NCBI RefSeq assembly: GCF_963921235.1
Contig: NC_086108.1
Coordinates: forward strand, 2,418,001-2,482,000
DNA: 64,000 nucleotides
Origin: Mobula hypostoma
Lineage: Eukaryota
Direction of reading: 5' to 3'
A program made the position numbers and the translations under genes. Positions 7,478 to 64,000 of this stretch are shown piece after piece. How positions within the stretch are numbered: position 1 is the stretch's first letter; each line of letters opens with the position of its first letter. Under the pieces are notes generated by a model. It made no database searches. It was given only the letters and a program-made list of their open reading frames with translations, and was not told the DNA's origin.

Positions 7478-8853
7478 AACAACAACAGGAATTCTGCAGA
7501 TGCTGGAAATTCAAGCGACACACATCAAAGTTGCTGGTGAACGCAGCAGGCCAGGCAGCATCTCTAGGAAGAGGTACAGTTGACGTTTCAGGCCAAGACC
7601 CTTCGTCAGGATTAACTGAAGGAAGAGTGAGTAAGGGATTTGAAAGTTGGAGGGGGAGGGGGAGATCCAAAATGATAGGAGAAGACAGGAGGGGGAGGGA
7701 TGGAGCCAAGAGCTGGACAGGTGATTGGCAAAAGGGATATGAGAGGATCATGGGACAGGGGGATGTCCTCCTTTTTTAAAGAAAAGGGCTTCCCTTCCTC
7801 CACTATCAACTCTGCTCTTAAACGCACCTCCCCCATTTCACGTACATCTGCTCTCACTCCATCCTCCCGCCACCCCACTAGGAATAGGGTTCCCCTGGTC
7901 TTCACCTACCACCCCACCAGCCTCCGGGTCCAACATATTATTCTCCGTAACTTCTGCCACCTCCAACGGGATCCCACCACTAAGCACATCTTACCCTCCC
8001 CACCTCTCTCTGCTTTCCCCAAGGATCGCTCCCTACGCGACTCCCTTGTCCATTCGTCCCCCCCCATCCCTCCCCACTGATCTCCCTCCTGGCACTTATC
8101 CGTGTAAGCGGAACAAGTGCTACACATGCCCTTACACTTCCTCCCTTAACACCATTCAGGGCCCCAAACAGTCCTTCCAGGTGAGGCGACACTTCACCTG
8201 TGAGTCGACTGGGGTGATATACTGCTTCCGGTGCTCCCGATGCAGCCTTCTATACATTGGCGAGACCCGACGCAGACTGGGAGACCGCTTTGCTGAACAT
8301 CTACGCTCTGTGCGCCAGAGAAAGCAGGATCTCCCAGTGGCCACATATTTTAATTCCACATCCCATTCCCATTGTGACATGTCTATCCACGGCCTCCTCT
8401 ACTGTAAAGATGAAGCCACACTCAGGTTGGAGGAACAACACCTTATATTCCGTCTGGGTAGCCTCCAACCTGATGGCATGAACATGGACTTCTCTAACTT
8501 CCGCTAATGCCCCACCTCCCCCTCGTACCCCATCTGTTACTTACTTTTATACACACATTCTTTCTCTCACTCTCCTTTTTCTCCCTCTGTCCTTCTGAAT
8601 ATACCACTTGCCCATCCTCTGGGTTCCCCAGCCCCCCCCCTTGTCTTTCTCCCTGGGCCTCCTGTCCCATGATCCTCTCATATCCCTTTTGCCTATCACC
8701 TGTCCAGCTCTTGGCTCCATCCCTCCCCCTCCTGTCTTCTCCTATCATTTTAGATCCCCCCTCCCCCTCCAACTTTCAAATCTCTTACTCACTCTTCCTT
8801 CAGTTAGTCCTGACGAAGGGTCTTGGCCTGAAATGTCGACTGCACCTCTTCCT
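7478..8853 (+). mobile_element. Penelope-like element (GIY-YIG) 3' part with inverted pLTR at its left end
   Basis: ORF 8046..8507 has VIYCFRCSRCSLLYIGETRRRLGDRFAEH. 7478-7759 is a reverse-orientation pLTR. Perfect 15-bp TSD AAAAATACCGAGAAC at 7463-7477 and 8854-8868. Confidence 0.92.
7577..7618 (-). ncRNA. Minimal type I hammerhead ribozyme motif in Penelope pLTR
   Basis: Minus strand CAGTTAATC-CTGACGA-AGGGTCTTGGCCT-GAAACGTC-AACTG: CUGANGA and GAAA core, palindromic ACGT stem III, GUC cleavage triplet. Confidence 0.75.
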
Positions 8854-34628: not shown

Positions 34629-34734
34629 GTGCTCGCTTTGGCGGCACATATACTAAAATTGGAATGATGCAGAGAATATTAGCACGGCCCCTGCGCGAGG
34701 ATGACACATAAATTTGTGAAGTGTTGGATATTTT
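34629..34734 (+). pseudogene. RNU6: Full-length U6 snRNA retro-pseudogene
   Basis: 106 nt colinear with vertebrate U6 (GTGCTCGCTT...TATTTT), about 13 substitutions by manual comparison with the recalled sequence. Several are CpG transitions, and the ACAGAGA box reads GCAGAGA. No recognisable PSE/TATA upstream. Confidence 0.93.
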
Positions 34735-35004
34735 GGGGCGGCACAATTGTGTATTAATGAGCACACCGCATTACAGTACGGGCGATCTAGGTTCAATTCC
34801 CGAGTCTACATTCTCCCTCGTAGCCACGTGGGTTTCCTGCAGGTGCTCTGCTTTCCTCCCACAGTTCGAAGACATACCGGTTGGTAGGTTAATTTGTCAT
34901 TTTAAATAGTTTTATGATTAGTCTCGGATTAATTGGGTGGTTGCTGGGCAGCACGGCTCGAAGGGACGAAAGGGCCTGTTCCACACTGTATCTCAATAAA
35001 TAAA
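34735..35004 (+). mobile_element. tRNA-derived SINE (V-SINE/HE1-like) fused to U6
   Basis: tRNA-like head with B-box (GGTTCAATTCC), V-domain-like core GTGGGTTTCC...TTTCCTCCCACA, CR1-like tail ending TCTCAATAAATAAA. Same family as 23340-23565 and 53863-54151. Confidence 0.85.
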
Positions 35005-35256
35005 CAAGTAGTTTCAGGGGATTCTCTTGTAATCTTGTTCAGCCCTACAATCTCTCTGGATTCTGTTCTTTTTATCCTCAGTTTCCCAATTTTGGTCACC
35101 CTACTATTGAGTGGATAACCAACTGAGATATCTTTCCATACCTTAAACTAGCTCTTGTTAAACTAGCCTTTTTTTCATTTGACTGAATAGTAAAAGTTAC
35201 CTTCTAATGCTCTTTGTGAATTTCCATGATATCCACATGTGTCATATACACTGTTG

Positions 35257-35625
35257 GTTCATTCTGTGCTGTGTTGTATGATGTGTGTGAGCACGGTCTT
35301 TTCCTGACCATGATTGTTCTTGGCAAATTTTTCTACAGAAGTAGTTTGCCATTGCTTTTTTCTGGGCAGTGCCTTTACAAGACGGGTGACCCCAGCCATT
35401 ACCAATACTCTTCAGAGATTGTCTGCCTGGTGTCAGTGGTCACATAACCAGGACTTGTGATACGTACAAACATCCACCACATGCTCCCATGGCTTCATGT
35501 GATCCTGATCATGGCCGTGGGGCTAAGCAGGTGCGACACCTTGCCCAGGGGTGACCCGCAGGCTAGCAGATGGAAGGAGTACCTTACTCCTCATTTGGTA
35601 GTGACATACCTCCACTCTGCCACCC
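35257..35625 (-). mobile_element. Short non-coding retroelement family, probably RTE-derived; copies at about 22721-23005, 47369-47750, 54155-54462
   Basis: Four colinear copies share GGTCACCC.TGG.CAAGGTGT.GCACCTGCTTAGC and AAGGCAATGGCAAACCACTTCTGTAGAAA, an RTE-tail-like motif. Confidence 0.7.
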
Positions 35626-38033
35626 AAGAAGTTCAATGACACAATTTCCATATACATCAAACAACAAATTTCCTAACATATGTCAGTGATAATAAACCTG
35701 ATTCTCTTCCCCTTAATTCTCCATCTTCCAGCCATGTTCCCAAGTAGGCAACGCAAGGTTAGGAATTGTCCCGGCACTCACATTCGGAATGTTGCAAGCT
35801 CATCAGAGGCAATTTGTAGCCAATGAATTACTTGAACTGTGTAATTATTGTAATACATACTTTTCATGTTGCTATTGTTCTGTCTTGCCAGAATTTTGTT
35901 CCATACCTGTCATTGTGTTAAGTGGATCTCGTTTATTCTGCTCCTCTGTTTCTCTTGTCAGCAGGTTTGCAAAAGAAGCCACTTTGCTGAATATCACAGG
36001 ATCCTCTTTCAAAACAATGCAGTTTTGCCAGAATTCAGTTCGATTCAAATTTAATTGTCATTCAGCCATACACGAATACTCATGAATACAGCCAAATGAG
36101 ACAGCATTACTCCGAGGTCAGGGTGCAAAACACAGTACCAACAGTCACACACGAGATAGCAAGCGCAAATGGTATCACAATTACGCAATAAAAGAGTCAA
36201 AGACTCACACCATCAATCCACAGTCGACCACAATAGAGTCAGTCTCCCACTGAGTGAACAGTGGGTGGGGGAGTCTGCGTTTAATTAGTATGAACTTGTC
36301 TTTTGGAACATAGAACAGTTTAGCACAGGAACAGACCCTTCAGCCCACAATGTTTTGCTGAATAAGCTTAAAAAGTAAATTAAAAAAACCAAAAACTAAC
36401 CCCTCCTATCTACACAATGTCCATATCCCTCCATCTTCCTTGTATTCTTGTGCCTATCTAAATGGCTCTTAAAAACCTCGAATATACGTCTTTGCCTCTA
36501 CCATCATACCAGGCAGCACATTCTAGGCATCCACCACTCTCTGAGGGGGAGAAAAAATTACCCCTCACTTCCCCTTTCAAACCTATCCCTCTCACCTTCA
36601 ATGTATTAGACATTATCTTGGTCAGCTGATGGCCCTTCCCATCTCTCACATCAGAAGGCTTGTGGATCCCAGACCTAGAGGTCGAAGCTACGAACTTAAG
36701 GCAATTAGAGTTGAGTAGGCCACTTGGCCCCTCAGTTCTACCCCATCATTCAGCCGGATCCTGTTTGAAATGCACCCCCCTCACCCCACCGTTCCCAAAA
36801 GCACACTATCCTGCAACCTTTCAAAAATACATCTATTTCCTGATCATCTATATTTTAGTGATTTGATCTCCATGGTGCTGCAGGTAGTGAATTCCAGAGG
36901 TTCTGCAAGAATAGGTTGATGTTCTATAGGATGAAGGAAGTGCTGTACTGTTGGAGATGTAGAGTTTTGGATTAAATACTAATTTGAGGCCCTGTTCATC
37001 CAATCAGATGGATATTTCTTTTTTTTTAAATCTGCCTTTTTTTTTGAAGGTATAAGTAAATTTTTTGTCACGGTATTCAGTATGATAATCTTCAGTTCAT
37101 AATGTGTTTCTAAAAAGGTGGTGTTCATCATTAAGGATCCCCATCACCCAGGACATGTCCTCTTCTTGTTGTTGTCATCAAGGAAGAGGTACAGGAACCT
37201 GAAGATACACTCAACAGTTCAGGGACAGCTTCTTCCCCTCTGTCATCCAATCTCAGAATGAACACTGCCTCATTTTTTAATTTCTATCTTTGCAACACAT
37301 ACATTCACACACACTGTGTATTTGCTGTAGTTCACAAATTATTTTTCTATGATTATGTATTGCATTGTACTGCTGCCACAAAGACAACACATTTCAGGAC
37401 GTATGCCAGTGATATTAAACCTAATTTTGATTTTTTTTTTAAGTCTTTCATTCCCCAGTGCTGACGCCTAGAATTCTACAGTATGGGAGTGGGCCATTTG
37501 GCCCAACTAAGCCATGCATCTATCACTCTGTGTATAAAAAGAGAACACAAAACCATTCCTCTGACATTTCTTTCCCCCAGCAATACTTTTCTCCCAACTC
37601 CTTGAAAAATTTTGTATCCTTGTTTTAGCCATTTCTACTCTGGCGGGGGGGTGGGGGGTGAAGTCACTGGCTATCCACTCAATCTCTGCCTCTTATCGTC
37701 TTGTACACCGCTATCAAGTCACCTCTCATCCTTCTTCAATCCAAAGAGAAACACCCTAGCTGGCTCAACCTATCCTCATAAGCCATGCTCCCTAGTTCCC
37801 ACATTATCTGTCTATTAGTGTTGTAATTATACCTGCCTCGACCACGTCCTCTGGCAGTTTGCTTCATGTACTTACCATCCTCTCACCACCCCCCCCCGCC
37901 TGTACTGTGAAGTGTTGTGCTAACCACTACGCTACCGTGTTGCCCCGCAAAGTTATTTTAACTCTGTTGTCACAAAGTTTGCTTCACTCTGACAAGAAAT
38001 TATGTAACCTGCGATTTATTTGTCTTTGGACAG

Positions 38034-39098
38034 AATCCCCTTCGCATCCTCAGTTCGGATGTCAGCTGGAAGGGAAGCTCTGCGTCTCTGGGCTGGGCCA
38101 GGACAAGCGTGAGAAGAAGAAGAGCTCCAACCTTGCCTTGCTGAAGAAGAAGCTGTTCAGGCGGCGCAAGTCGGCCAAATCGGCTGACCATGCCAAGCAC
38201 ATGCGGGAGCTCCTCTGCAGCTGGGATGTGCGAGACGTGGGCCTGCTGGTGAAGCAATATGAAGCGGCTCTGGCCGTGAAGGAGCTGGCAATTCAAGCAT
38301 GTGTGGCCAGGCCAGAGGCCAGCCGCTTAAATGAGGATTTGGCCAAGTTGTACCAGTTCAAGTACTGTACGGATGTGGACCTGATATTCCAGGGTACATG
38401 CTTTCCTGTCCATCGCGCCATCCTGGCAGCGCGGTGCCCTTTCTTCAAAACCCTCCTCCTGTCTAACCTGGACCGTGCGGAGTTGGTTATGGACATCAGC
38501 ACTGTTGGCATAGACATACCGATATTGTCTTCGCTATTGCACTACTTGTACAGTGGAGAGTTTGGCGTGCGGGATTCCCAGATCAAAAATGTTGACATCC
38601 TAGTGCGTCTCAGTGAGGAGTTTGGCATGCCCAATGCCCTTCACTTTGACATCTACAGCCTCCTGGAGAGTTGCTGCTATTACGACGCGGTCCTCAGCTT
38701 CACCTCCAGCCCCGAGGCCTCCGACGGCTTCGAAGGGTGCCGCCTGGAAGGTGACTTCCGCTGCCACAAGGCCATCCTCTGCGCCCGCTCGCCGTTCTTC
38801 CGCAACCTCCTCCAGAAGCGGATCCGCAGCGGGGAGGAAACCACAGACCGGACCTTGCAGACCCCAGCCAGGATTGTTCTGAACGAGGCAATCATTCCAA
38901 AGAAGTATGCAAAGGTTATTTTGCATTGCATGTACACAGACCTGGTGGACCTGGATTTGGTCCTACCATTCAGCCCGTCTACAGGGAGTTTGAGGGAAGT
39001 GCAGGATGAATCAGGGAAGGACAGCGAAACCCGGTTGGAAAACGCAATGGAACTGTTCCATATCGCACTCTTCATTGAATTCGACATGTTGGCCCAAG
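38034..39098 (+). CDS. BTBD7: BTBD7-like large exon encoding two BTB/POZ domains and a basic NLS-like segment
   Basis: Lies inside ORF 37859..39199. Motifs LKKKLFRRRKSAKSADHAKHMRELL, YKYCTDVDLIFQGTCFPVHRAILAARCPFF-like, HKAILCARSPFFRNLLQKRIR and MELFHIALFIEFDMLAQG match BTBD7 as I recall it. Acceptor cAG at 38031-38033, donor GTAAG at 39099; 1065 nt, phase 1/1. Confidence 0.95.
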
Positions 39099-39107
39099 GT
39101 AAGGAAA

Positions 39108-40050
39108 ACATAGAACATAGAACAGTACAGGACAGGAACAGGCTCTTCGGTGCCAAACCAGCTAAAAAGTCAGTCAAACCCCTCTCCCCAAAATCTTAAC
39201 CCTCCTACCTGCACCATGTCCATATGCCTCTGTCTTCCTGACATCCATGTGCCTTTCCAAAGGTCTGTTCAAAGCCTCTAAAATATTTGCCTCTACCACC
39301 ATACTGGGCAGCGTATCCATCACTCTGAATAAAAAAAACTTACCCCCTCACATCCCCCTTAAGCCTACCCCCTCTCACCTTCAATGCATGCCCTCTGATA
39401 TTAGACATTTCAACCCTGGGAAGCAGATACTCTCTGTCCACTCTGTCTATGCCTCCCATAATCTTGTAAACCTCTATCAGATCTCCCCTCAGCATCCACT
39501 GCTCTGGAGAAAACAGCCCAAGTTTATCCAGCCTCTTGTGATAGGATATGCCCTCTAAACCAGGCAACATCCTCATAAACCTCTATTGCACAGTCTCCGA
39601 AGCCTTAACGTCCTTCCTCTAGTGGGGCAACCAGAACTGTATACTCCAGAAGTGGCCTAATCGGAGATTTGTAAAGTTGCAACATAACCTCTTGACTTTT
39701 GAAATTAATGCCTCAACTAGTAAAAGCAAGCATCCCATAAATGGCCTTAACCACCCTAGCGACCTGTGAAGCCACTTTCAAAGGGCTATAAACTTGGATC
39801 CCAAGATCTCCCTGCACAGCAACACTGTTGAGGATCTTGCCCTTAACGGTGTACTGTCTCCTTGCATTTGCCCTCCCAAGATGCAACACCTCACATTTAT
39901 CTAGGTTAAATGCCATCTACCATTTCTCAGACCATATCTACATTTGATCTATTCTTTGCCAGTCTTCCACACTATCCACAACTGCACCAATCTTGGTATC
40001 ATCTGCAAATTTACTAACCCACCCATCTACATTTTCGTCTAGGTCATACA
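39108..40050 (-). mobile_element. CR1 LINE 3' fragment
   Basis: MAFNLDKCEVLHLGR, LRGDLIEVYKIM, RGHALKV; (TTCTATG)-type tail adjacent to the exon donor. Confidence 0.88.
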
Positions 40051-40777
40051 TGCTTAGGGGGACAAAATGAGGGTGGCTGCTTGATTGGCAGTATGCTGTA
40101 CCCGTGTGATCTTCTCGCTCTCTTTGATGAAGAGTTAGAGCCTGTCAGTCCTCGAGTCAGTTGGCTCAGAGAAGCAAAGCAGAAGATTGTAACATGGGAA
40201 CAGTGAGCTGTAGTCTCCCGCTGTCGTTGTTGCAGGAGTGACCTCTCTTTCTATGAATAATGAAGTGTTGGGTTATGGACTGTAGTTTTTGACGGACTGT
40301 AGATCACGGTCTATTTGGGGGCTTGCTGTTGCTTGCATGGTATGGGGAGGAGTGTCTGTGATTTGCTGGGGGACAGTCATTGCTTATGCTGCTGCTTGTG
40401 CATAGGGGAGGGGGGCTTTGGGGTTATGATGTTTCATTCATTCTTAAGGGTTTTTCCTGTTTTGAGGATGTCTGTGAAGAGTAAGAATTACAGGTTGTAT
40501 ACTGTATATATTCTCTGACATAAAATTGAACCGTTGACCTCTGCTCACCCATGCAAGTTTCTGAAGTGGGCTCAGCCCAGAGAGGCAGAGCTTCCCGTCC
40601 AGCTGACATCTGAACTGAGGATGTGAAAGGCATTCTTCAACAACTTTTGAAATTGTTTAAAACTAACTTTTGCATCCTAGGCTAAACTGTTCATAAAACA
40701 ATGATCAGACTCCAGTTCGGTGCAGGCTCGAAGGGCCGAATGGCCTTCTCCTGTACATATTTTCTATATTTCTAGAT

Positions 40778-52288: not shown

Positions 52289-52444
52289 CATACCAATTCT
52301 TCTGAATCACTAAAACTTCCTTTAACAGGCTTAGTATCAATTTTCAATTGAGTGAGGTTCTGTGACACATTCTGGATTGTAGAAACACAAAGAATGCTAA
52401 ATGCACAATGAATGGTTGACCTTCTAAAGGTTACTTCATTATCA

Positions 52445-52795
52445 GATGTTGAAAGGCTTTGATAGAGTGGATGTGAAGAGGATGTTTCCTGTGGTGGGGG
52501 AGTCTGTGACCAGGGGGCTCAGCCTCAGGATAGAGGGGTGTCCATTTAGAATGAAGATGAGGGATTTCTTTAGCCAGAGGGTGGTAAATCTGTGGAATTT
52601 GTTGCCACAGCCAGCAATGGAGGTCAAGTCATTAGGTATATTTAAGGCAGAGGTTGATATATTCTTGATTAGTCAGGACATGAAGGGATATGGGGAGAAG
52701 GCAGGAGATTGGGGTTGGGAGAGAAAATAGGTCAGCCATGATGAAATGGTGGGGCAGACTCAATGGGCCAAATGGCCTAATTCTGCTGTTATACT
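52445..52795 (+). mobile_element. CR1 LINE 3' end
   Basis: TRGLSLRIEGCPFR...FFSQRVVNLWNLLP and 3' UTR GGGCCAAATGGCCTAATTCTGC. Confidence 0.85.
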
Positions 52796-53862: not shown

Positions 53863-54151
53863 TTTATTTTATTTATTGAGACACTGTGTGGAATAGATCC
53901 TTCCTGCCCTTCAAGATGTGCCGCCCAGCAATCCCATTTAATCCTAGCCAAATCACAAAACAGTTTACAATGACCAATTAATTTATCAACCGGTATATCT
54001 TTTGGACTATGGGAGGAAACTGGAGCACCAAGAGGAAACCTACATGGTCACAGGAAGAAATTGCAAACTCCTTACAGGTAATAGTGTGAATTGAACCCAT
54101 GTTGCTGGTACTGTAAAGCATTGTGCTAACCACTATGCTACCATGCCATCC
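53863..54151 (-). mobile_element. tRNA-derived SINE (V-SINE/HE1-like), full length
   Basis: Reverse strand reads GGATGGCATGGTAGCATAGTGGTTAG (A box)...GGGTTCAATTC (B box), then core and AATAAA-repeat tail. Confidence 0.8.
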
Positions 54152-59520: not shown

Positions 59521-60062
59521 AGATATTAAATAGTTAAATGAAATAACTTGTACAAAAGTAAAAAAAATAGTAGTGAGGTAGTGTTCAGGGGTTCACTGTC
59601 TATTCTGAAATCAGTTGGCAGAGGGGAAGAAGCAATTCCTGAATCGTTAGGCCGGGCGACGAGATCTAAGCCAGAGTGTATCACTGTACTGGGACTCACG
59701 CATTATGCGGGGTGTGACCCAGAGTTTGGACAATTTAAATGCTGGCCCTGATAGACTGGAATAGCAGGATGTTGGGACCCGAGCCGAGGGTTGGGCCGAA
59801 TCCACTCGCTCTCCTGTGACGTTCACTCCTCTCACTGTGGCACTGGAGCTAATAAGGATACTCCAGCTTCTATGCGCTTCATGTCTGTGAGCTTCACGGC
59901 GACTTGCCATATATAATGAACTGAGGTGTGAAAGAGTTTATGCCATGGACCCCTACCATTAACCAAGGCACCTGTGGGCCCCAGATTGGGAGCTCCTGCT
60001 TGGAACTAGAAAAGAGGTTGGAAAATTTGGATACTTGCACAGACCCAGTCCACACCTATAGT

Positions 60063-60457
60063 TAGAAACATAGAAAATAGGTACAGGAGTAGGCTATTTG
60101 GCCCTTCGAGCCTGCACCGCCATTCAATATGATCATGGCTGATCATCCAACTCAGAACCCTGTACCTGCTTTCTCTCCCTACCCCCGATCCCTTTAGTCA
60201 CAAGGGCCATATCTAACTCCCCCTTAAATATAGCCAATGAATTGGCCTCAACTGTTTCCTGTGGCAGAGAATTCCACAGATTCACCAATCTCTGTGTGAA
60301 GAAGTTTTTCCTCATCTCGGTCCTAAAAGGCTTCCCCTTTATCCTTAAACTGTGACCCCTCATTCTGGACTTCCCCAACATCGGAAACAATCTTCCTGCA
60401 TCCGGCCTGTCCAATCCCTTTAGAATTTTATACGTTTCAATAAGATCCCCCCTCAAT
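60063..60457 (-). mobile_element. Young CR1 LINE 3' end
   Basis: RGDLIETYKILKGLD...RGHSLRIKG...FFTQRLVNLWNSLP plus TTTTCTATGTTTCT tail. Confidence 0.9.
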
Positions 60458-61774: not shown

Positions 61775-64000
61775 TCTGTTGGAATTCTTTGAAGAAGTAA
61801 CAAGCAGGCTAGACATCGGAGAATCAGTTGATGTTATGTATTTGGATTTTCAGAAGGCCTTTGACCAGGTGCCATACATGAGGCTGCTTAGTACATGAGC
61901 CCATGGTATTACAGGAAAGATGCTAGCATAGATAAAGCAGTGGCTGATTGTCTGGAGGCAATCTGACTGGCTGCCGGTGCCTAGTGGTATTCCACGTGGG
62001 GTCTGTGTTGGGACCAATTCTTTTTACGGTATATGTCAGTCATTTGGATGTTGGAATTGATGGCTTTGTTGCAAAGTTTGCAGATGCTATGAAGATAGAT
62101 GGAGGAGCAGGTAGTTTTGAAGAAGTAGAGAGGCTACAGAAGGACTTGTACAGATTAGGAGAATGGGCAAAGAAATGACAGCTGAAATACAGTGTCGGGA
62201 AGTGTATGGTCATGTAGTTTGGTAGAAGAAATGAAAGGGGTGACTATTTTCTAAGTGGAGAGAAAATAGTCAAATCTGAGGTGCATAGGGACTTGGGAGT
62301 CCATGTGCAAGATTCTCTAAAGGTTAATTTGGAGGTTGAATCTGTGCTGAGGAAGGCAAATGCAGTGTTCGCATTTATTTCAAAAGGACTAGAATATAAA
62401 AGCAAGGATGTAATGTTGAAAACTTCATAAAGCACTGATGAGGCCCCACTTGGAATATTGTGAGCAGATTTGGGTGCCTTATCTTAGAAAAGATGTGCTG
62501 AAATTGGAGAGGGTTCAAAGGAGGTTCATGAAAATAATTCCAGGATTGAAAACACAAAATAATCTGCAGATGCTGGGGTCAAAGCAACACTCACAACACG
62601 CTGGAGGATCTCAGCAGGTTGGGCAGCATCCGTGGAAAAGATCGGTCGACTTTTTAGGCCAGAACCCTTCGTCAGGACTGTAGGGGGAAGGGGCAGAGGC
62701 TCTATAAAGAAGGTGGGGGGAGGGTGGGAAGGAGAAGGCTGGTAGGTTCCAGGTGAAAAACCAGTAAGGGGAAAGATAAAGGGGTGGGGGAAGGGAGGCA
62801 GGGAGGTGATAGGCAGGAAAAGTGAAGAAGGAATAGGGGAAAACACAATGGGTAGTAGAAGGAGGCGGAACCAAGAGGGAGGTGGTAGGCAGGGGGGAGG
62901 GGGCAGAGTGACATAGGGATAGGGGAAGGGAAGGGGAGGGAATTACTGGAAGTTGGAGAATTCTATGTTCATACCAAGGGGCTAGAGACTACCTAGGGGG
63001 TATATGAGGTGTTGCTCCTCCAACCTGAGTTTAGCCTCATCATGGCAGTAGAGGAGGCCATGTATAGACATATCTGAATGGGAGTGGGAAGCAGAGTTGA
63101 AGTGGGTGGCTACTGGGAGATCCTGTCTGTATTGACGGATGGAGCGGAGGTGCTCGACGAAGCGGTTCCCCAATCTGCGTCGGGTTTCACCAATATAGAG
63201 GAGGCTGCATCGGGAGCACAGGATGCAATAGATGACCCCAACAGACTCACAAGTGAAGTGTTGCCTCACTTGGAAGTACTGTCTGGGGCCCTGAATGGTG
63301 GCAAGAGAGGAGGTGTAGCACTTGCGCTTACAGGGATAAGTGCCAGGTGGGAGATCCGTGGGGAGGGACGTGTGGACCAGGGAGTCGCGGAGGGACCGAT
63401 CCCTGCGGAAGGCAGAGAGGGGTGGAGAGGGAAAGATGTGCTTAGTGGTGGGATCCTGTCGAAGGTGGCGGAAGTTGCAGAGGATAATGTGCTGGATCCG
63501 GAGGCTGGTGGGGTGGTAGGTGAGGACAAGGAGAACTCTGTCCCTGTTGTGGTGGCGGGAGGATGGGGTGAGAGCCGAAGTGCGGGAAATGGAGGAGATG
63601 CGGGTGAGGGCATCATTGATGACAGCAGAAGGGACAGCAGAAATTCCAGGGTTGAATGGCTTGTCATTTGAAGAGTGTCTGATGGCTCTGGGCCTATATT
63701 CACTGGAATTCAGAAGAATGAGGGGTGACCTATTTGAAACCTATCGAATCGTGAAAGGGCTTGATAGAGTGGATGTGGAGAGGATGTTTCCTATGGTGGA
63801 CTGGTCCAAGACCAGAAGACGCTGCGTTAGAATAGAGGGGTGTCCTTTTAGAATGGAGATGAGGAGGAATTTCTTTAGCCAGACAGTGGTGAATCTGTGG
63901 AATTCTTTGCCACAAGCAGCTGTGGAGGTCAAGCCTTTATATTTAAGGCAGAGGTTGATAGATTCTTGGTGGATCAGGGCATGAAAGGATATGGGGAGAA
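61775..64000 (+). mobile_element. CR1 LINE RT remnant, interrupted by a Penelope insertion at 62551-63641
   Basis: GSVLGPILF, AKFADAMK, RPHLEYCEQIW; resumes after the TSD with GLSFEECLMALGLYSLEFRRMRGDL. Confidence 0.9.
62551..63641 (-). mobile_element. Penelope-like 3' fragment inserted into a CR1 LINE, 15-bp TSD
   Basis: ORF 62982..63269 is GIY-YIG; AATTCCAGG(A/G)TTGAA at 62536-62550 and 63642-63656. Confidence 0.92.

What the first reader, a model, noticed from the sequence alone, without database searches (positions are those of the whole stretch)
34629..35004. U6 snRNA-SINE chimera: full-length U6 fused directly to the 5' end of a complete tRNA-derived SINE
Seen: a 106-nt U6 copy ends in TATTTT at 34734, and the SINE head (GGGGCGGCAC...) begins at 34735 in the same orientation with no spacer. 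The full-length copy of the same SINE at 53863-54151 has no U6. Known: full-length U6 joined to L1/Alu 3' parts is a mammalian chimeric retrogene class, explained by template switching or RtcB ligation of the U6 2',3'-cyclic phosphate. snRNA-headed SINEs (SINEU) exist in crocodilians. Inference: the partner here has a CR1-like tail, so this is either a U6 chimera made by CR1-type machinery in a cartilaginous fish or a member of an undescribed U6-headed composite SINE family.
Basis: partly seen in the sequence, partly recalled or inferred. Interest (0 to 1): 0.8.

Follow-up and report, generated by a model that had tools for sequence, protein, structure and literature searches.

The report
U6-SINE chimeric retrocopy, one of many
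A dead copy of the spliceosomal U6 RNA is joined end-to-start to a complete SINE, likely because a jumping-gene reverse transcriptase switched templates during one insertion; about two dozen similar U6 fusions lie elsewhere in this genome, so it is a new example of a known kind of genomic fossil.

Summary
Window 34629-34734 is a full-length but decayed U6 copy (Rfam 91.8 bits; 13 of 106 bases differ from this genome's U6 genes). It runs straight into base 1 of a 270-nt tRNA-type SINE (34735-35004).

It is neither a one-off nor a U6-headed SINE family. Among 76 U6-like loci found in the window's own genome, 17 show U6 followed within 14 nt by a SINE 5' end. These involve three different SINE families. 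Three more are fused to the 3' end of a CR1-like LINE, and two to 5'-truncated SINEs.

In 23 of 24 tabulated fusions the U6 match reaches the 3' end (nt 104-106), while the U6 5' end varies (nt 1 to 76). Where not later disrupted, the partner runs to its own tail. That is the signature of reverse transcription passing from the retroelement RNA into U6. One relative (L122) has a perfect 10-bp target-site duplication around the whole unit. This locus has none.

U6 chimeras with L2/RTE LINEs and their SINEs are already described in platypus and Anolis (Doucet 2015). My paper searches found none reported for cartilaginous fishes. This scan has noted the same kind on other genomes.

Verdict: real, explained, a new member of a known kind.

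The parts
34629..34734 (+). Full-length U6 snRNA retropseudogene, nt 1-106, ending in TTTT. It is decayed: 13 of 106 bases changed, and the catalytic ACAGAGA box reads GCAGAGA.
   Evidence: Rfam RF00026, 91.8 bits. Comparison with the gene-type U6 of this genome. No TATA-like box about 30 nt upstream, unlike loci L006-L010 (read by eye).
34731..34738 (+). Junction: the U6 oligo-T end joined directly to the first G residues of the SINE (TTTT|GGGG). No spacer and no poly(A).
   Evidence: Sequence. 5' ends of U6-less SINE copies. Junction table.
34735..35004 (+). Complete 'type A' tRNA-type SINE, with head, conserved core and LINE-type tail. It is 17.5% diverged from the consensus of 29 copies and has a roughly 16-nt internal deletion near 34812.
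   Evidence: nhmmer, model positions 2-285 of 285, E 2e-71. Alignment. Divergence.
34790..34800 (+). B-box-like GGTTCAATTCC of the SINE head. The A box is degenerate in this copy; the family consensus has TAGCGTAGTGG.
   Evidence: Sequence. Consensus printed. ARAGORN calls no tRNA in the window.
34955..35004 (+). SINE 3' tail. The core GGCTCGAAGGGACGAAAGGGCC resembles LINE 3' ends in the window. It is followed by CTGTATCTC and the terminal AATAAATAAA repeat.
   Evidence: Pattern search: 4 matches against 0.05 expected. Sequences. Alignment.
53863..54151 (-). Second copy of the same SINE family, without U6, used for comparison.
   Evidence: Alignment at about 80% identity. nhmmer.
60060..60440 (-). 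3' end of a CR1-like LINE copy, with hairpin-like GGGCCAAATAGCC and an ATTTTCTATGTTTCTA tail. It is of the family that is fused to U6 at L126, L129 and L136. Similar ends lie at 52440-52795 (+) and 40700-40775 (+).
   Evidence: It was used as a profile.

Best explanation
This is a dead chimeric retrocopy that was most likely made in a single insertion event. A LINE reverse transcriptase primed on the 3' tail of a SINE RNA and copied it to its very 5' end. It then likely jumped onto the 3' oligo-U end of a U6 snRNA and copied that too.

Shown directly:
- U6 nt 1-106 abuts SINE nt 1 in the same orientation.
- The same architecture recurs across the genome with several partner elements.
- Across the 24 tabulated fusions the U6 match reaches its 3' end in 23, while the U6 5' end is variably truncated. 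Partners that are not later disrupted reach their own 3' tail.

Inferred:
- This particular locus arose in one event; it has no target-site duplication.
- The joining step was a template jump rather than an RNA ligation.
- The enzyme came from a CR1/L2-type LINE.

The product has no function: U6 is mutated and lacks its upstream promoter, and the SINE A box is decayed.
For: **Anatomy.**

**Census of 76 U6-like loci in the window's genome.** These are 48 from Rfam, 11 new among 50 core-pattern sites, and 17 new among 46 sites of the 3' pattern.
- nhmmer places a SINE 5' end (model position 25 or lower) within 14 nt of the U6 end in 15 loci: 5 type A, 8 type B and 2 type C.
- L060b and L037 add two more, giving 17.
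- Three loci (L126, L136, L129) are fused to the last 37-163 model positions of a CR1-like LINE.
- Two loci (L125, L132) are fused to 5'-truncated SINE B (weak E, about 3e-3).

**Direction of synthesis.** In 23 of 24 tabulated fusions the U6 match reaches nt 104-106. The exception is L060, where the match stops at nt 87. The U6 start ranges from nt 1 to nt 76 and lies at nt 16 or later in 11 loci.

**Chance.** 8 adjacent heads were observed against 0.075 expected, P 2.4e-14.

**One-event proof in a relative.** L122 carries U6 nt 73-106 plus a complete SINE C inside a perfect 10-bp duplication, AACAGCTATA. The longest match among 182 mismatched control pairs was 9.

**No poly(A) at the junction.** Stand-alone U6 retrocopies here end in poly(A) with duplications (11 loci). 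No fusion has poly(A) between U6 and its partner.

**Literature.**
- Doucet 2015 (PMC4476161, section 10 read) reports U6-L2, U6-Mon-1, U6-RTE and six U6-AnolisSINE2 chimeras, with short or absent duplications.
- Moldovan 2019 (PMC6789731, passages read) found that RtcB ligation needs a 5'-OH and that a 5'-triphosphate greatly reduces it. From general knowledge, a Pol III primary transcript carries a 5'-triphosphate. A junction at SINE nt 1 therefore fits run-off template jumping better than ligation.
Against: - No target-site duplication of 6 nt or more flanks this locus, around either the whole unit or the SINE alone. Only 1 of 14 fusions with intact ends has a clear one.
- The two halves are not equally diverged: U6 is 12-13% from the gene sequence and the SINE is 17.5% from its consensus. 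Across loci the two values do not track each other, although my consensus mixes subfamilies.
- In other species I could show only the SINE-to-flank joint, not the U6 part.
- The partner LINE of this SINE type was not found.
- Sequence alone cannot exclude ligation of U6 to a SINE RNA with a processed 5' end.
Confidence: 0.62

Rival explanations
1. The outcome is the same single-event chimeric retrocopy, but the joint was made earlier, at the RNA level. An RtcB-type ligase joined the 2',3'-cyclic phosphate end of U6 to a SINE RNA, and the LINE machinery then retrotransposed the chimeric RNA.
For: This was shown for human U6/L1 (Moldovan 2019, PMC6789731, passages read). It explains equally well the intact U6 3' end, the lack of a spacer, and the fusions to internal LINE and SINE positions (L125, L126, L129, L132, L136).
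Against: Seventeen fusions start at or near SINE nt 1. From general knowledge, that is the 5'-triphosphate end of a Pol III transcript. In Moldovan's assays a 5'-triphosphate greatly reduced ligation. Random 5'-OH breaks would be expected to give more 5'-truncated SINEs than the 2 weak cases seen.
Confidence: 0.22
2. The locus is a member of a U6-headed composite SINE family, SINEU-like, that amplified from one or a few master copies.
For: Many loci share the same kind of junction. Four fusions (L027, L036, L038, L041) share a T-to-C change in the U6 part, reading AAAAC.
Against: - A BLAST search with the junction of this locus finds only itself.
- The fusions involve three SINE families and several subtypes, each with many U6-less relatives.
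- U6 5' ends differ from locus to locus.
- The AAAAC variant also occurs in four U6 copies for which I saw no SINE or LINE partner (L019, L034, L035, L043).
- From general knowledge, U6 has an upstream promoter that is not carried along, and the TTTT at the joint would stop Pol III.
- Kojima's criteria for a true family are not met: no U6-less counterpart with the same tail, and shared internal deletions.
Confidence: 0.04
3. Two independent insertions. Either a SINE landed exactly at the end of an older U6 pseudogene, or a U6 retrocopy landed exactly in front of an older SINE.
For: There is no duplication around the unit. The halves differ somewhat in divergence. An independent SINE C does sit 27 nt behind a U6-like copy at L059, and a SINE lies 78 nt behind L011.
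Against: - Chance adjacency is expected 0.075 times in 59 loci, against 8 observed.
- The joint is base-exact at both RNA termini.
- Stand-alone U6 retrocopies here carry poly(A) tails, and none is present at this joint.
- The genome-wide pattern of variable U6 5' truncation with a fixed 3' end is not produced by insertions next to old copies.
Confidence: 0.07

Closest known systems
U6 chimeric retrocopies made by non-L1 LINEs and their partner SINEs: platypus U6-L2 and U6-Mon-1; Anolis U6-L2, U6-RTE, U6-L1 and six U6-AnolisSINE2 (Doucet et al. 2015, PMC4476161; section 10 read)
   Same: U6 is joined at its 3' end to a LINE 3' part or to the LINE's partner SINE, in the same orientation. U6 is often 5'-truncated. 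Target-site duplications are short or absent. Several LINE clades contribute within one genome.
   Different: - The host lineage differs. Earlier notes call it a cartilaginous-fish-like genome, which I did not test. That paper surveyed marsupials through amphibians.
- Here full-length SINEs joined at base 1 dominate: 17 fusions, against 3 to LINE ends and 2 to truncated SINEs.
- Three SINE families take part.
- A CR1-like LINE is a clear partner in 3 loci, whereas the paper's single turkey CR1 case was left open.
Mammalian U6/L1 chimeric pseudogenes. Buzdin 2002/2003 is recalled and seen only in reference lists. Moldovan 2019 (PMC6789731) was read in passages. Law and Burns 2025 was seen as abstract and outline only.
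   Same: A full-length U6 with an intact oligo-T end is fused without a spacer to the 3' part of a retroelement. The product is dead on arrival.
   Different: The L1 partners there are variably 5'-truncated and end in poly(A), with 10-20 bp duplications. Here the partner is a complete SINE with a stringent-type tail and no duplication. U6/Alu fusions are rare in human.
SINEU, the snRNA-headed SINEs of crocodilians (Kojima 2015, PMC4494074; passages read)
   Same: An snRNA-derived sequence sits at the 5' end of a short retroposon with a CR1-type tail. The arrangement is thought to have been born by template switch.
   Different: SINEU heads are U1 or U2, the copies form true families with shared deletions and 5' extensions, and no headless counterpart exists. 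Here the head is U6, the copies are independent, and headless SINE copies number in the thousands.
SacSINE1 / Deu-SINEs of sharks, skate, chimaera and coelacanth (Luchetti et al. 2017, PMC5499810; passages read)
   Same: As described there: a tRNA-like head, a conserved central domain and a LINE-derived tail, at high copy number in cartilaginous fishes. The SINE half of this finding fits that description.
   Different: No reference sequence was available, so identity with SacSINE1 or the Deu domain was not tested. That paper ties the tail to L2-2_CM. Here the tail core resembles CR1-like LINE ends in the window.
Tripartite chimeric retrocopies from double template jumps (Gogvadze et al. 2007, PMC2104539; search listing and start of abstract only)
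   Same: Locus L133 has a U6 3' fragment, then a full U6, then a SINE, which looks like two successive jumps.
   Different: That case is fungal and uses a different LINE. L133 is a relative elsewhere in the genome, not the window locus.

Membership tests
snRNA/LINE-type chimeric retrocopy (U6 chimera) | The snRNA copy is joined at its own 3' end, in the same orientation and without a spacer, to retroelement sequence. | tested here: met
   U6 nt 1-106 ends at 34734 and the SINE starts at 34735.
snRNA/LINE-type chimeric retrocopy (U6 chimera) | The partner extends to its own 3' terminus, the site where reverse transcription is primed. | tested here: met
   SINE A model positions 2-285 of 285, ending in the AATAAATAAA tail at 35004.
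snRNA/LINE-type chimeric retrocopy (U6 chimera) | One target-site duplication flanks the whole unit. | tested here: not met
   no exact match of 6 nt or more at this locus. It is met at the relative L122 (10 bp) and weakly at L041 (7 bp). Doucet 2015 reports 1-9 bp or none for L2-type chimeras, so absence is usual for this subclass.
snRNA/LINE-type chimeric retrocopy (U6 chimera) | It is not a gene: the U6 upstream promoter is absent. | tested here: met
   By eye. Loci L006-L010 have TTTATATAGC-like boxes about 30 nt upstream. This locus has none there.
snRNA/LINE-type chimeric retrocopy (U6 chimera) | Independent events recur in the genome, with variable breakpoints in U6 (5' side) and in the partner. 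| tested here: met
   U6 starts range from nt 1 to nt 76. Partners are SINE A, B, C and LINE3. Partner starts range from position 1 to position 334.
snRNA/LINE-type chimeric retrocopy (U6 chimera) | Both halves arrived at the same time (empty orthologous site). | not testable with these tools
   One search shows the SINE-to-flank joint in contigs of three other coded organisms. No empty site was seen.
snRNA-headed SINE family (SINEU-like) | Many copies share one junction and private mutations or deletions, i.e. descent from master copies. | tested here: not met
   the junction is unique; the fusions involve different SINE families and different U6 5' ends.
snRNA-headed SINE family (SINEU-like) | There is no abundant headless element with the same 3' terminus. 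| tested here: not met
   4994 and 5022 first-look candidates for the two SINE types. All 58 other loci fetched were aligned, and no U6-like sequence was evident by eye in their 50-70 nt 5' flanks.
SacSINE1 / Deu-SINE | tRNA-derived head with A and B boxes. | tested here: inconclusive
   The consensus of 29 copies has TAGCGTAGTGG and GGTTCAATTCC. This copy keeps only the B box. ARAGORN calls no tRNA.
SacSINE1 / Deu-SINE | Central Deu domain and L2-2_CM-like tail. | not testable with these tools
No reference sequence is held. The description comes only.
CR1-clade LINE as the mobilising partner | 3' hairpin followed by an 8-bp microsatellite (Galbraith 2021, PMC8665684; passages read). | tested here: inconclusive
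   LINE copies in the window and at L126, L129 and L136 show GGGCC...GGCC plus tails with an 8-nt period (by eye). The SINE tail shares the core but ends in AAATA-type repeats. No reverse-transcriptase phylogeny was made.

The most novel reading that the evidence does not exclude
In stringent (CR1/L2-type) LINE systems, U6 chimeras arise by end-to-end template jumping from the triphosphate 5' end of a finished SINE template, not by RtcB ligation as shown for human L1. This habit would be as old as jawed vertebrates, which would make cartilaginous-fish genomes a natural data set for separating the two mechanisms.
Probability: 0.45. Interest if true: 0.45.

Novelty: new member of a known kind. 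Interest (0 to 1): 0.3.

Why it matters
It extends U6 chimeric retrocopies to a deep-branching vertebrate genome, to three SINE families and to a CR1-like LINE.

Joints at SINE base 1 predominate over joints at internal positions. This bears on the open question of whether such chimeras are made by reverse-transcriptase template jumping or by prior RNA ligation.

It also gives annotators a practical rule. A U6 hit that abuts a SINE or LINE tail in such genomes is a retrocopy. It is neither a gene nor a new SINE class.

Tried and rejected
- **Junction BLAST in the own genome.** It found only the locus itself. This tool skips very common words, so it is weak as a count.
- **Search of the own genome with a junction model (R1).** The tool does not accept RNA models for this genome. 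I replaced it with a U6 3'-end pattern search.
- **Target-site duplication search.** Nothing at this locus. Over 14 fusions the distribution does not differ from 182 mismatched controls, except for L122.
- **Matching ages of the two halves.** Inconclusive. The SINE distances are inflated by mixing subfamilies, and the comparison copies were the best BLAST hits.
- **Partner LINE of SINE type A.** Only a shared core of about 24 nt with CR1-like LINE ends was found. Pfam on 10 window ORFs gave BTB, GIY-YIG and ALKBH8_N but no reverse transcriptase. The LINE in L044 is broken by frameshifts. The clade is not resolved. One row of alignment A4 ('L136_piece') used wrong coordinates and should be ignored.
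- **Public runs.** No RNA holder is listed.
- **Laying reads.** The second was swamped by repeats. Only three bridging contigs were usable: X6 record 25, X10 record 1 and X11 record 9. X12 gave no bridging piece.
- **L131 as a fusion.** This rests on reading by eye only; nhmmer gave no hit. L049 is weak (E 0.011). L030 has a 24-nt spacer of unknown origin. None of these three is counted among the 17.
- **ARAGORN.** No tRNA was called, so 'tRNA-derived' rests on box motifs and the literature.
- **Supplementary files.** The supplements of Doucet 2015 and Luchetti 2017 were not opened. They may hold sequences that would settle the SINE identity.

Full report
**The observation**

The window holds one Rfam hit at gathering score: U6 (RF00026) at 34629-34735 on the plus strand. 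It scores 91.8 bits against a cut-off of 44 and covers the full model.

Compared with the U6 sequence of this genome's apparent genes, 93 of 106 bases match. The 13 changes include A41G in the ACAGAGA box. By my reading of that list, 5 of the 13 are CpG transitions. No TATA-like box lies about 30 nt upstream, unlike loci L006-L010 (by eye). It is therefore a pseudogene.

The U6 ends ...GGATATTTT at 34734, and GGGGCGGCAC follows at once.

The next 270 bases (34735-35004) are a complete copy of an abundant SINE:
- A profile built from 29 other copies aligns over positions 2-285 of 285, E 2e-71.
- U6-less copies start GGG(C/T)GGCAC directly after unique flank.
- This copy is 17.5% from the consensus and lacks about 16 nt near 34812.

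**How common the arrangement is**

I collected U6-like loci in the window's own genome (3.48 Gb) in three ways:

| Source | Sites | New loci |
|---|---|---|
| Rfam scan | 48 scored | 48 |
| 27-nt core pattern, up to 3 mismatches | 50 (control 0) | 11 |
| 34-nt 3'-end pattern, up to 3 mismatches | 46 (control 0) | 17 |

That gives 76 loci, fetched. They sort as follows.

- **Apparent genes.** Five look like genes: four clustered on one contig and one elsewhere.
- **Young stand-alone retrocopies.** Eleven are near-identical copies with poly(A) tails and clear duplications.
- **U6 joined to a SINE head.** Profile search of the 420 nt behind each U6 end puts a SINE 5' end (model position 25 or lower) within 14 nt in 15 loci:
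  - type A: this locus, L027, L038, L041, L137
  - type B: L036, L040, L047, L060, L124, L127, L133, L134
  - type C: L023, L122
  - a second unit in L060, and L037, are added by a head-only profile (E 1e-26 and 2e-5), giving 17
- **Weak or by eye only.** L049 (E 0.011) and L131.
- **With a spacer.** L030 has a 24-nt spacer.
- **U6 joined to a LINE end.** L126, L136 and L129 are joined to the last 163, 115 and 37 model positions of a CR1-like LINE.
- **U6 joined to a truncated SINE.** L125 and L132 are joined to internal or tail parts of SINE B (E about 3e-3).

Types A and B share the head and core but have different tails. Type B fusions also fall into two tail variants. Type C is a different element.

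**Chance and direction of synthesis**

Elsewhere in 244,166 bases of the same loci and the window there are 24 SINE heads, counting both strands. Over the first 59 loci, 0.075 heads are therefore expected in the 26-nt window behind U6. Eight were found by the same strict rule, P 2.4e-14.

The junction table gives the direction of synthesis:
- In 23 of 24 fusions the U6 match reaches nt 104-106. In L060 the local match stops at nt 87.
- The U6 start varies: nt 1-9 in 13 loci, and nt 16, 20, 31, 39, 46, 61, 64, 67, 73, 74 and 76 in the other 11.
- Where not later disrupted, the partner runs to its own tail.
- No fusion has poly(A) between the parts, although stand-alone U6 retrocopies here do.

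This is what reverse transcription gives when it starts on the retroelement tail, runs into U6 from its 3' end, and sometimes stops early. Insertions landing next to older copies would not give this pattern.

L122 proves one event for a relative. U6 nt 73-106 plus a complete SINE C sit inside a perfect 10-bp duplication. The longest match among 182 mismatched control pairs was 9.

L133 reads U6 fragment, then U6, then SINE, as after two jumps.

**Not a SINE family**

- The exact junction of this locus is unique.
- The fusions use three SINE families, each with thousands of first-look candidates (4994 and 5022 for the two types searched). The 58 other copies of those two types that I aligned showed no U6-like sequence in their 5' flanks by eye.
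- U6 5' ends differ between loci.
- A shared AAAAC variant in four fusions also occurs in four U6 copies for which I saw no SINE or LINE partner. This points to a variant source RNA rather than a master chimera.
- From general knowledge, the U6 promoter lies upstream and is not copied, and four T residues at the joint would terminate Pol III.

**This locus in particular**

No duplication of 6 nt or more flanks either the unit or the SINE alone.

Contigs of three other coded organisms bridge the SINE tail into the downstream flank:
- X6 record 25: 34978-35325, 8 differences
- X10 record 1: 34872-35323
- X11 record 9

The SINE insertion is therefore older than those splits. The single-event reading for this locus rests on the class-level evidence.

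**Mechanism**

Two routes are known.
- Template switching is the model of Doucet 2015 for L2, RTE and their SINEs.
- Moldovan 2019 showed RtcB ligation of the U6 cyclic-phosphate end to 5'-OH RNAs. A 5'-triphosphate greatly reduced the reaction.

Here 17 fusions start at or near SINE base 1. From general knowledge, that is the triphosphate end of a Pol III transcript. Only 2 weak cases start inside a SINE. I therefore favour run-off template jumping (0.62) over ligation (0.22). Sequence alone cannot settle this.

**The LINE**

The SINE A tail shares a core of about 24 nt (GGCTCGAAGGGCCGAA.GGCC) with LINE 3' ends in the window. Those LINE ends show a hairpin-like GGCC pair and tails with an 8-nt period, which are CR1 hallmarks according to Galbraith 2021. 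The same LINE family is fused to U6 at L126, L129 and L136.

The SINE, however, ends in AAATA-type repeats, and SacSINE1's tail has been tied to an L2 element. The clade is left open.

**Comparison and novelty**

Doucet 2015 already describes U6 chimeras with L2, RTE and L1 and with Mon-1, AnolisSINE2 and RTESINE1, with short or absent duplications and frequent U6 5' truncation. The kind is therefore known.

My searches found no report for cartilaginous fishes. That paper's survey ran from marsupials to amphibians.

Earlier notes of this scan describe the same kind on other genomes, and other LINE chimeras in this genome.

Noticed in passing
L002, L003, L005, L011-L018 (U6 at 1501 to length-1500 of each locus): Eleven near-identical U6 retrocopies end in poly(A). 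Most are flanked by clear 8-15 bp duplications, for example ATACATGTAAAC at L003. This implies recent activity of a poly(A)-dependent (L1-like) LINE in this genome. Some carry 5 T residues although the genes encode 4 T then G, as expected from post-transcriptional uridylation.
   Followed up: partly
L007-L010 (one contig, four U6 copies within about 9.3 kb) and L006: Five identical U6 copies have TATA-like boxes about 30 nt upstream and end in TTTTG. They are probably the functional genes, and four of them sit in a tandem cluster.
   Followed up: no
L133:60-570 (as oriented): A tripartite unit: a U6 3' fragment, then an almost full U6, then a SINE B that also carries a roughly 55-nt insert. 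It looks like two successive template jumps.
   Followed up: partly
L060:1050-1890: Two U6-SINE B fusions lie head to tail about 500 bp apart. The upstream one keeps only about 40 nt of U6.
   Followed up: partly
L038:1775-2125 and beyond: The 3' part of the fused SINE A has grown into a tandem array with a 57-nt unit, at least 6 copies, running off the fetched stretch.
   Followed up: no
L044:1501-1800 and L048:1501-2030: A U6 copy runs directly into LINE coding sequence. In L044 it is the reverse-transcriptase motif VDVVYMDFSKAF. In L048 it is the ORF2 C-terminal part LYKALVRPHLEY, where the U6 stops at about nt 65. These may be further chimeras with long LINE parts or a 3'-truncated U6.
   Followed up: partly
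L055, L056, L059 (U6-like part at 1501-1607): Three diverged U6-like copies share about 60 nt of upstream flank and 25 nt or more of downstream flank, so they belong to a larger repeated unit. In L059 a SINE C inserted 27 nt behind the U6-like copy. L053 and L054 are likewise near-duplicates of each other.
   Followed up: no
L022 and L135, directly behind the U6 end: Both U6 copies are followed by the same sequence of unknown origin (GCTTGGTGGGGAAG.ACCACAG...GGTTCTTCTGCTA.TGGAGA). This may be a further recurrent partner element.
   Followed up: no
L027:1439-1520 (oriented): The U6 5' end of this fusion is split by a roughly 55-nt insert ending in a (GATA)n-type stretch. The insert is flanked by a duplicated AATTTGACAG, which indicates a later nested insertion.
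   Followed up: no
window 37796-39199 (+); 7743-8507 (+); 62982-63740 (-): An open frame with a BTB/POZ domain (E 2e-22) lies 2.8 kb downstream of the fusion. Two frames with weak GIY-YIG matches suggest Penelope-like elements.
   Followed up: no
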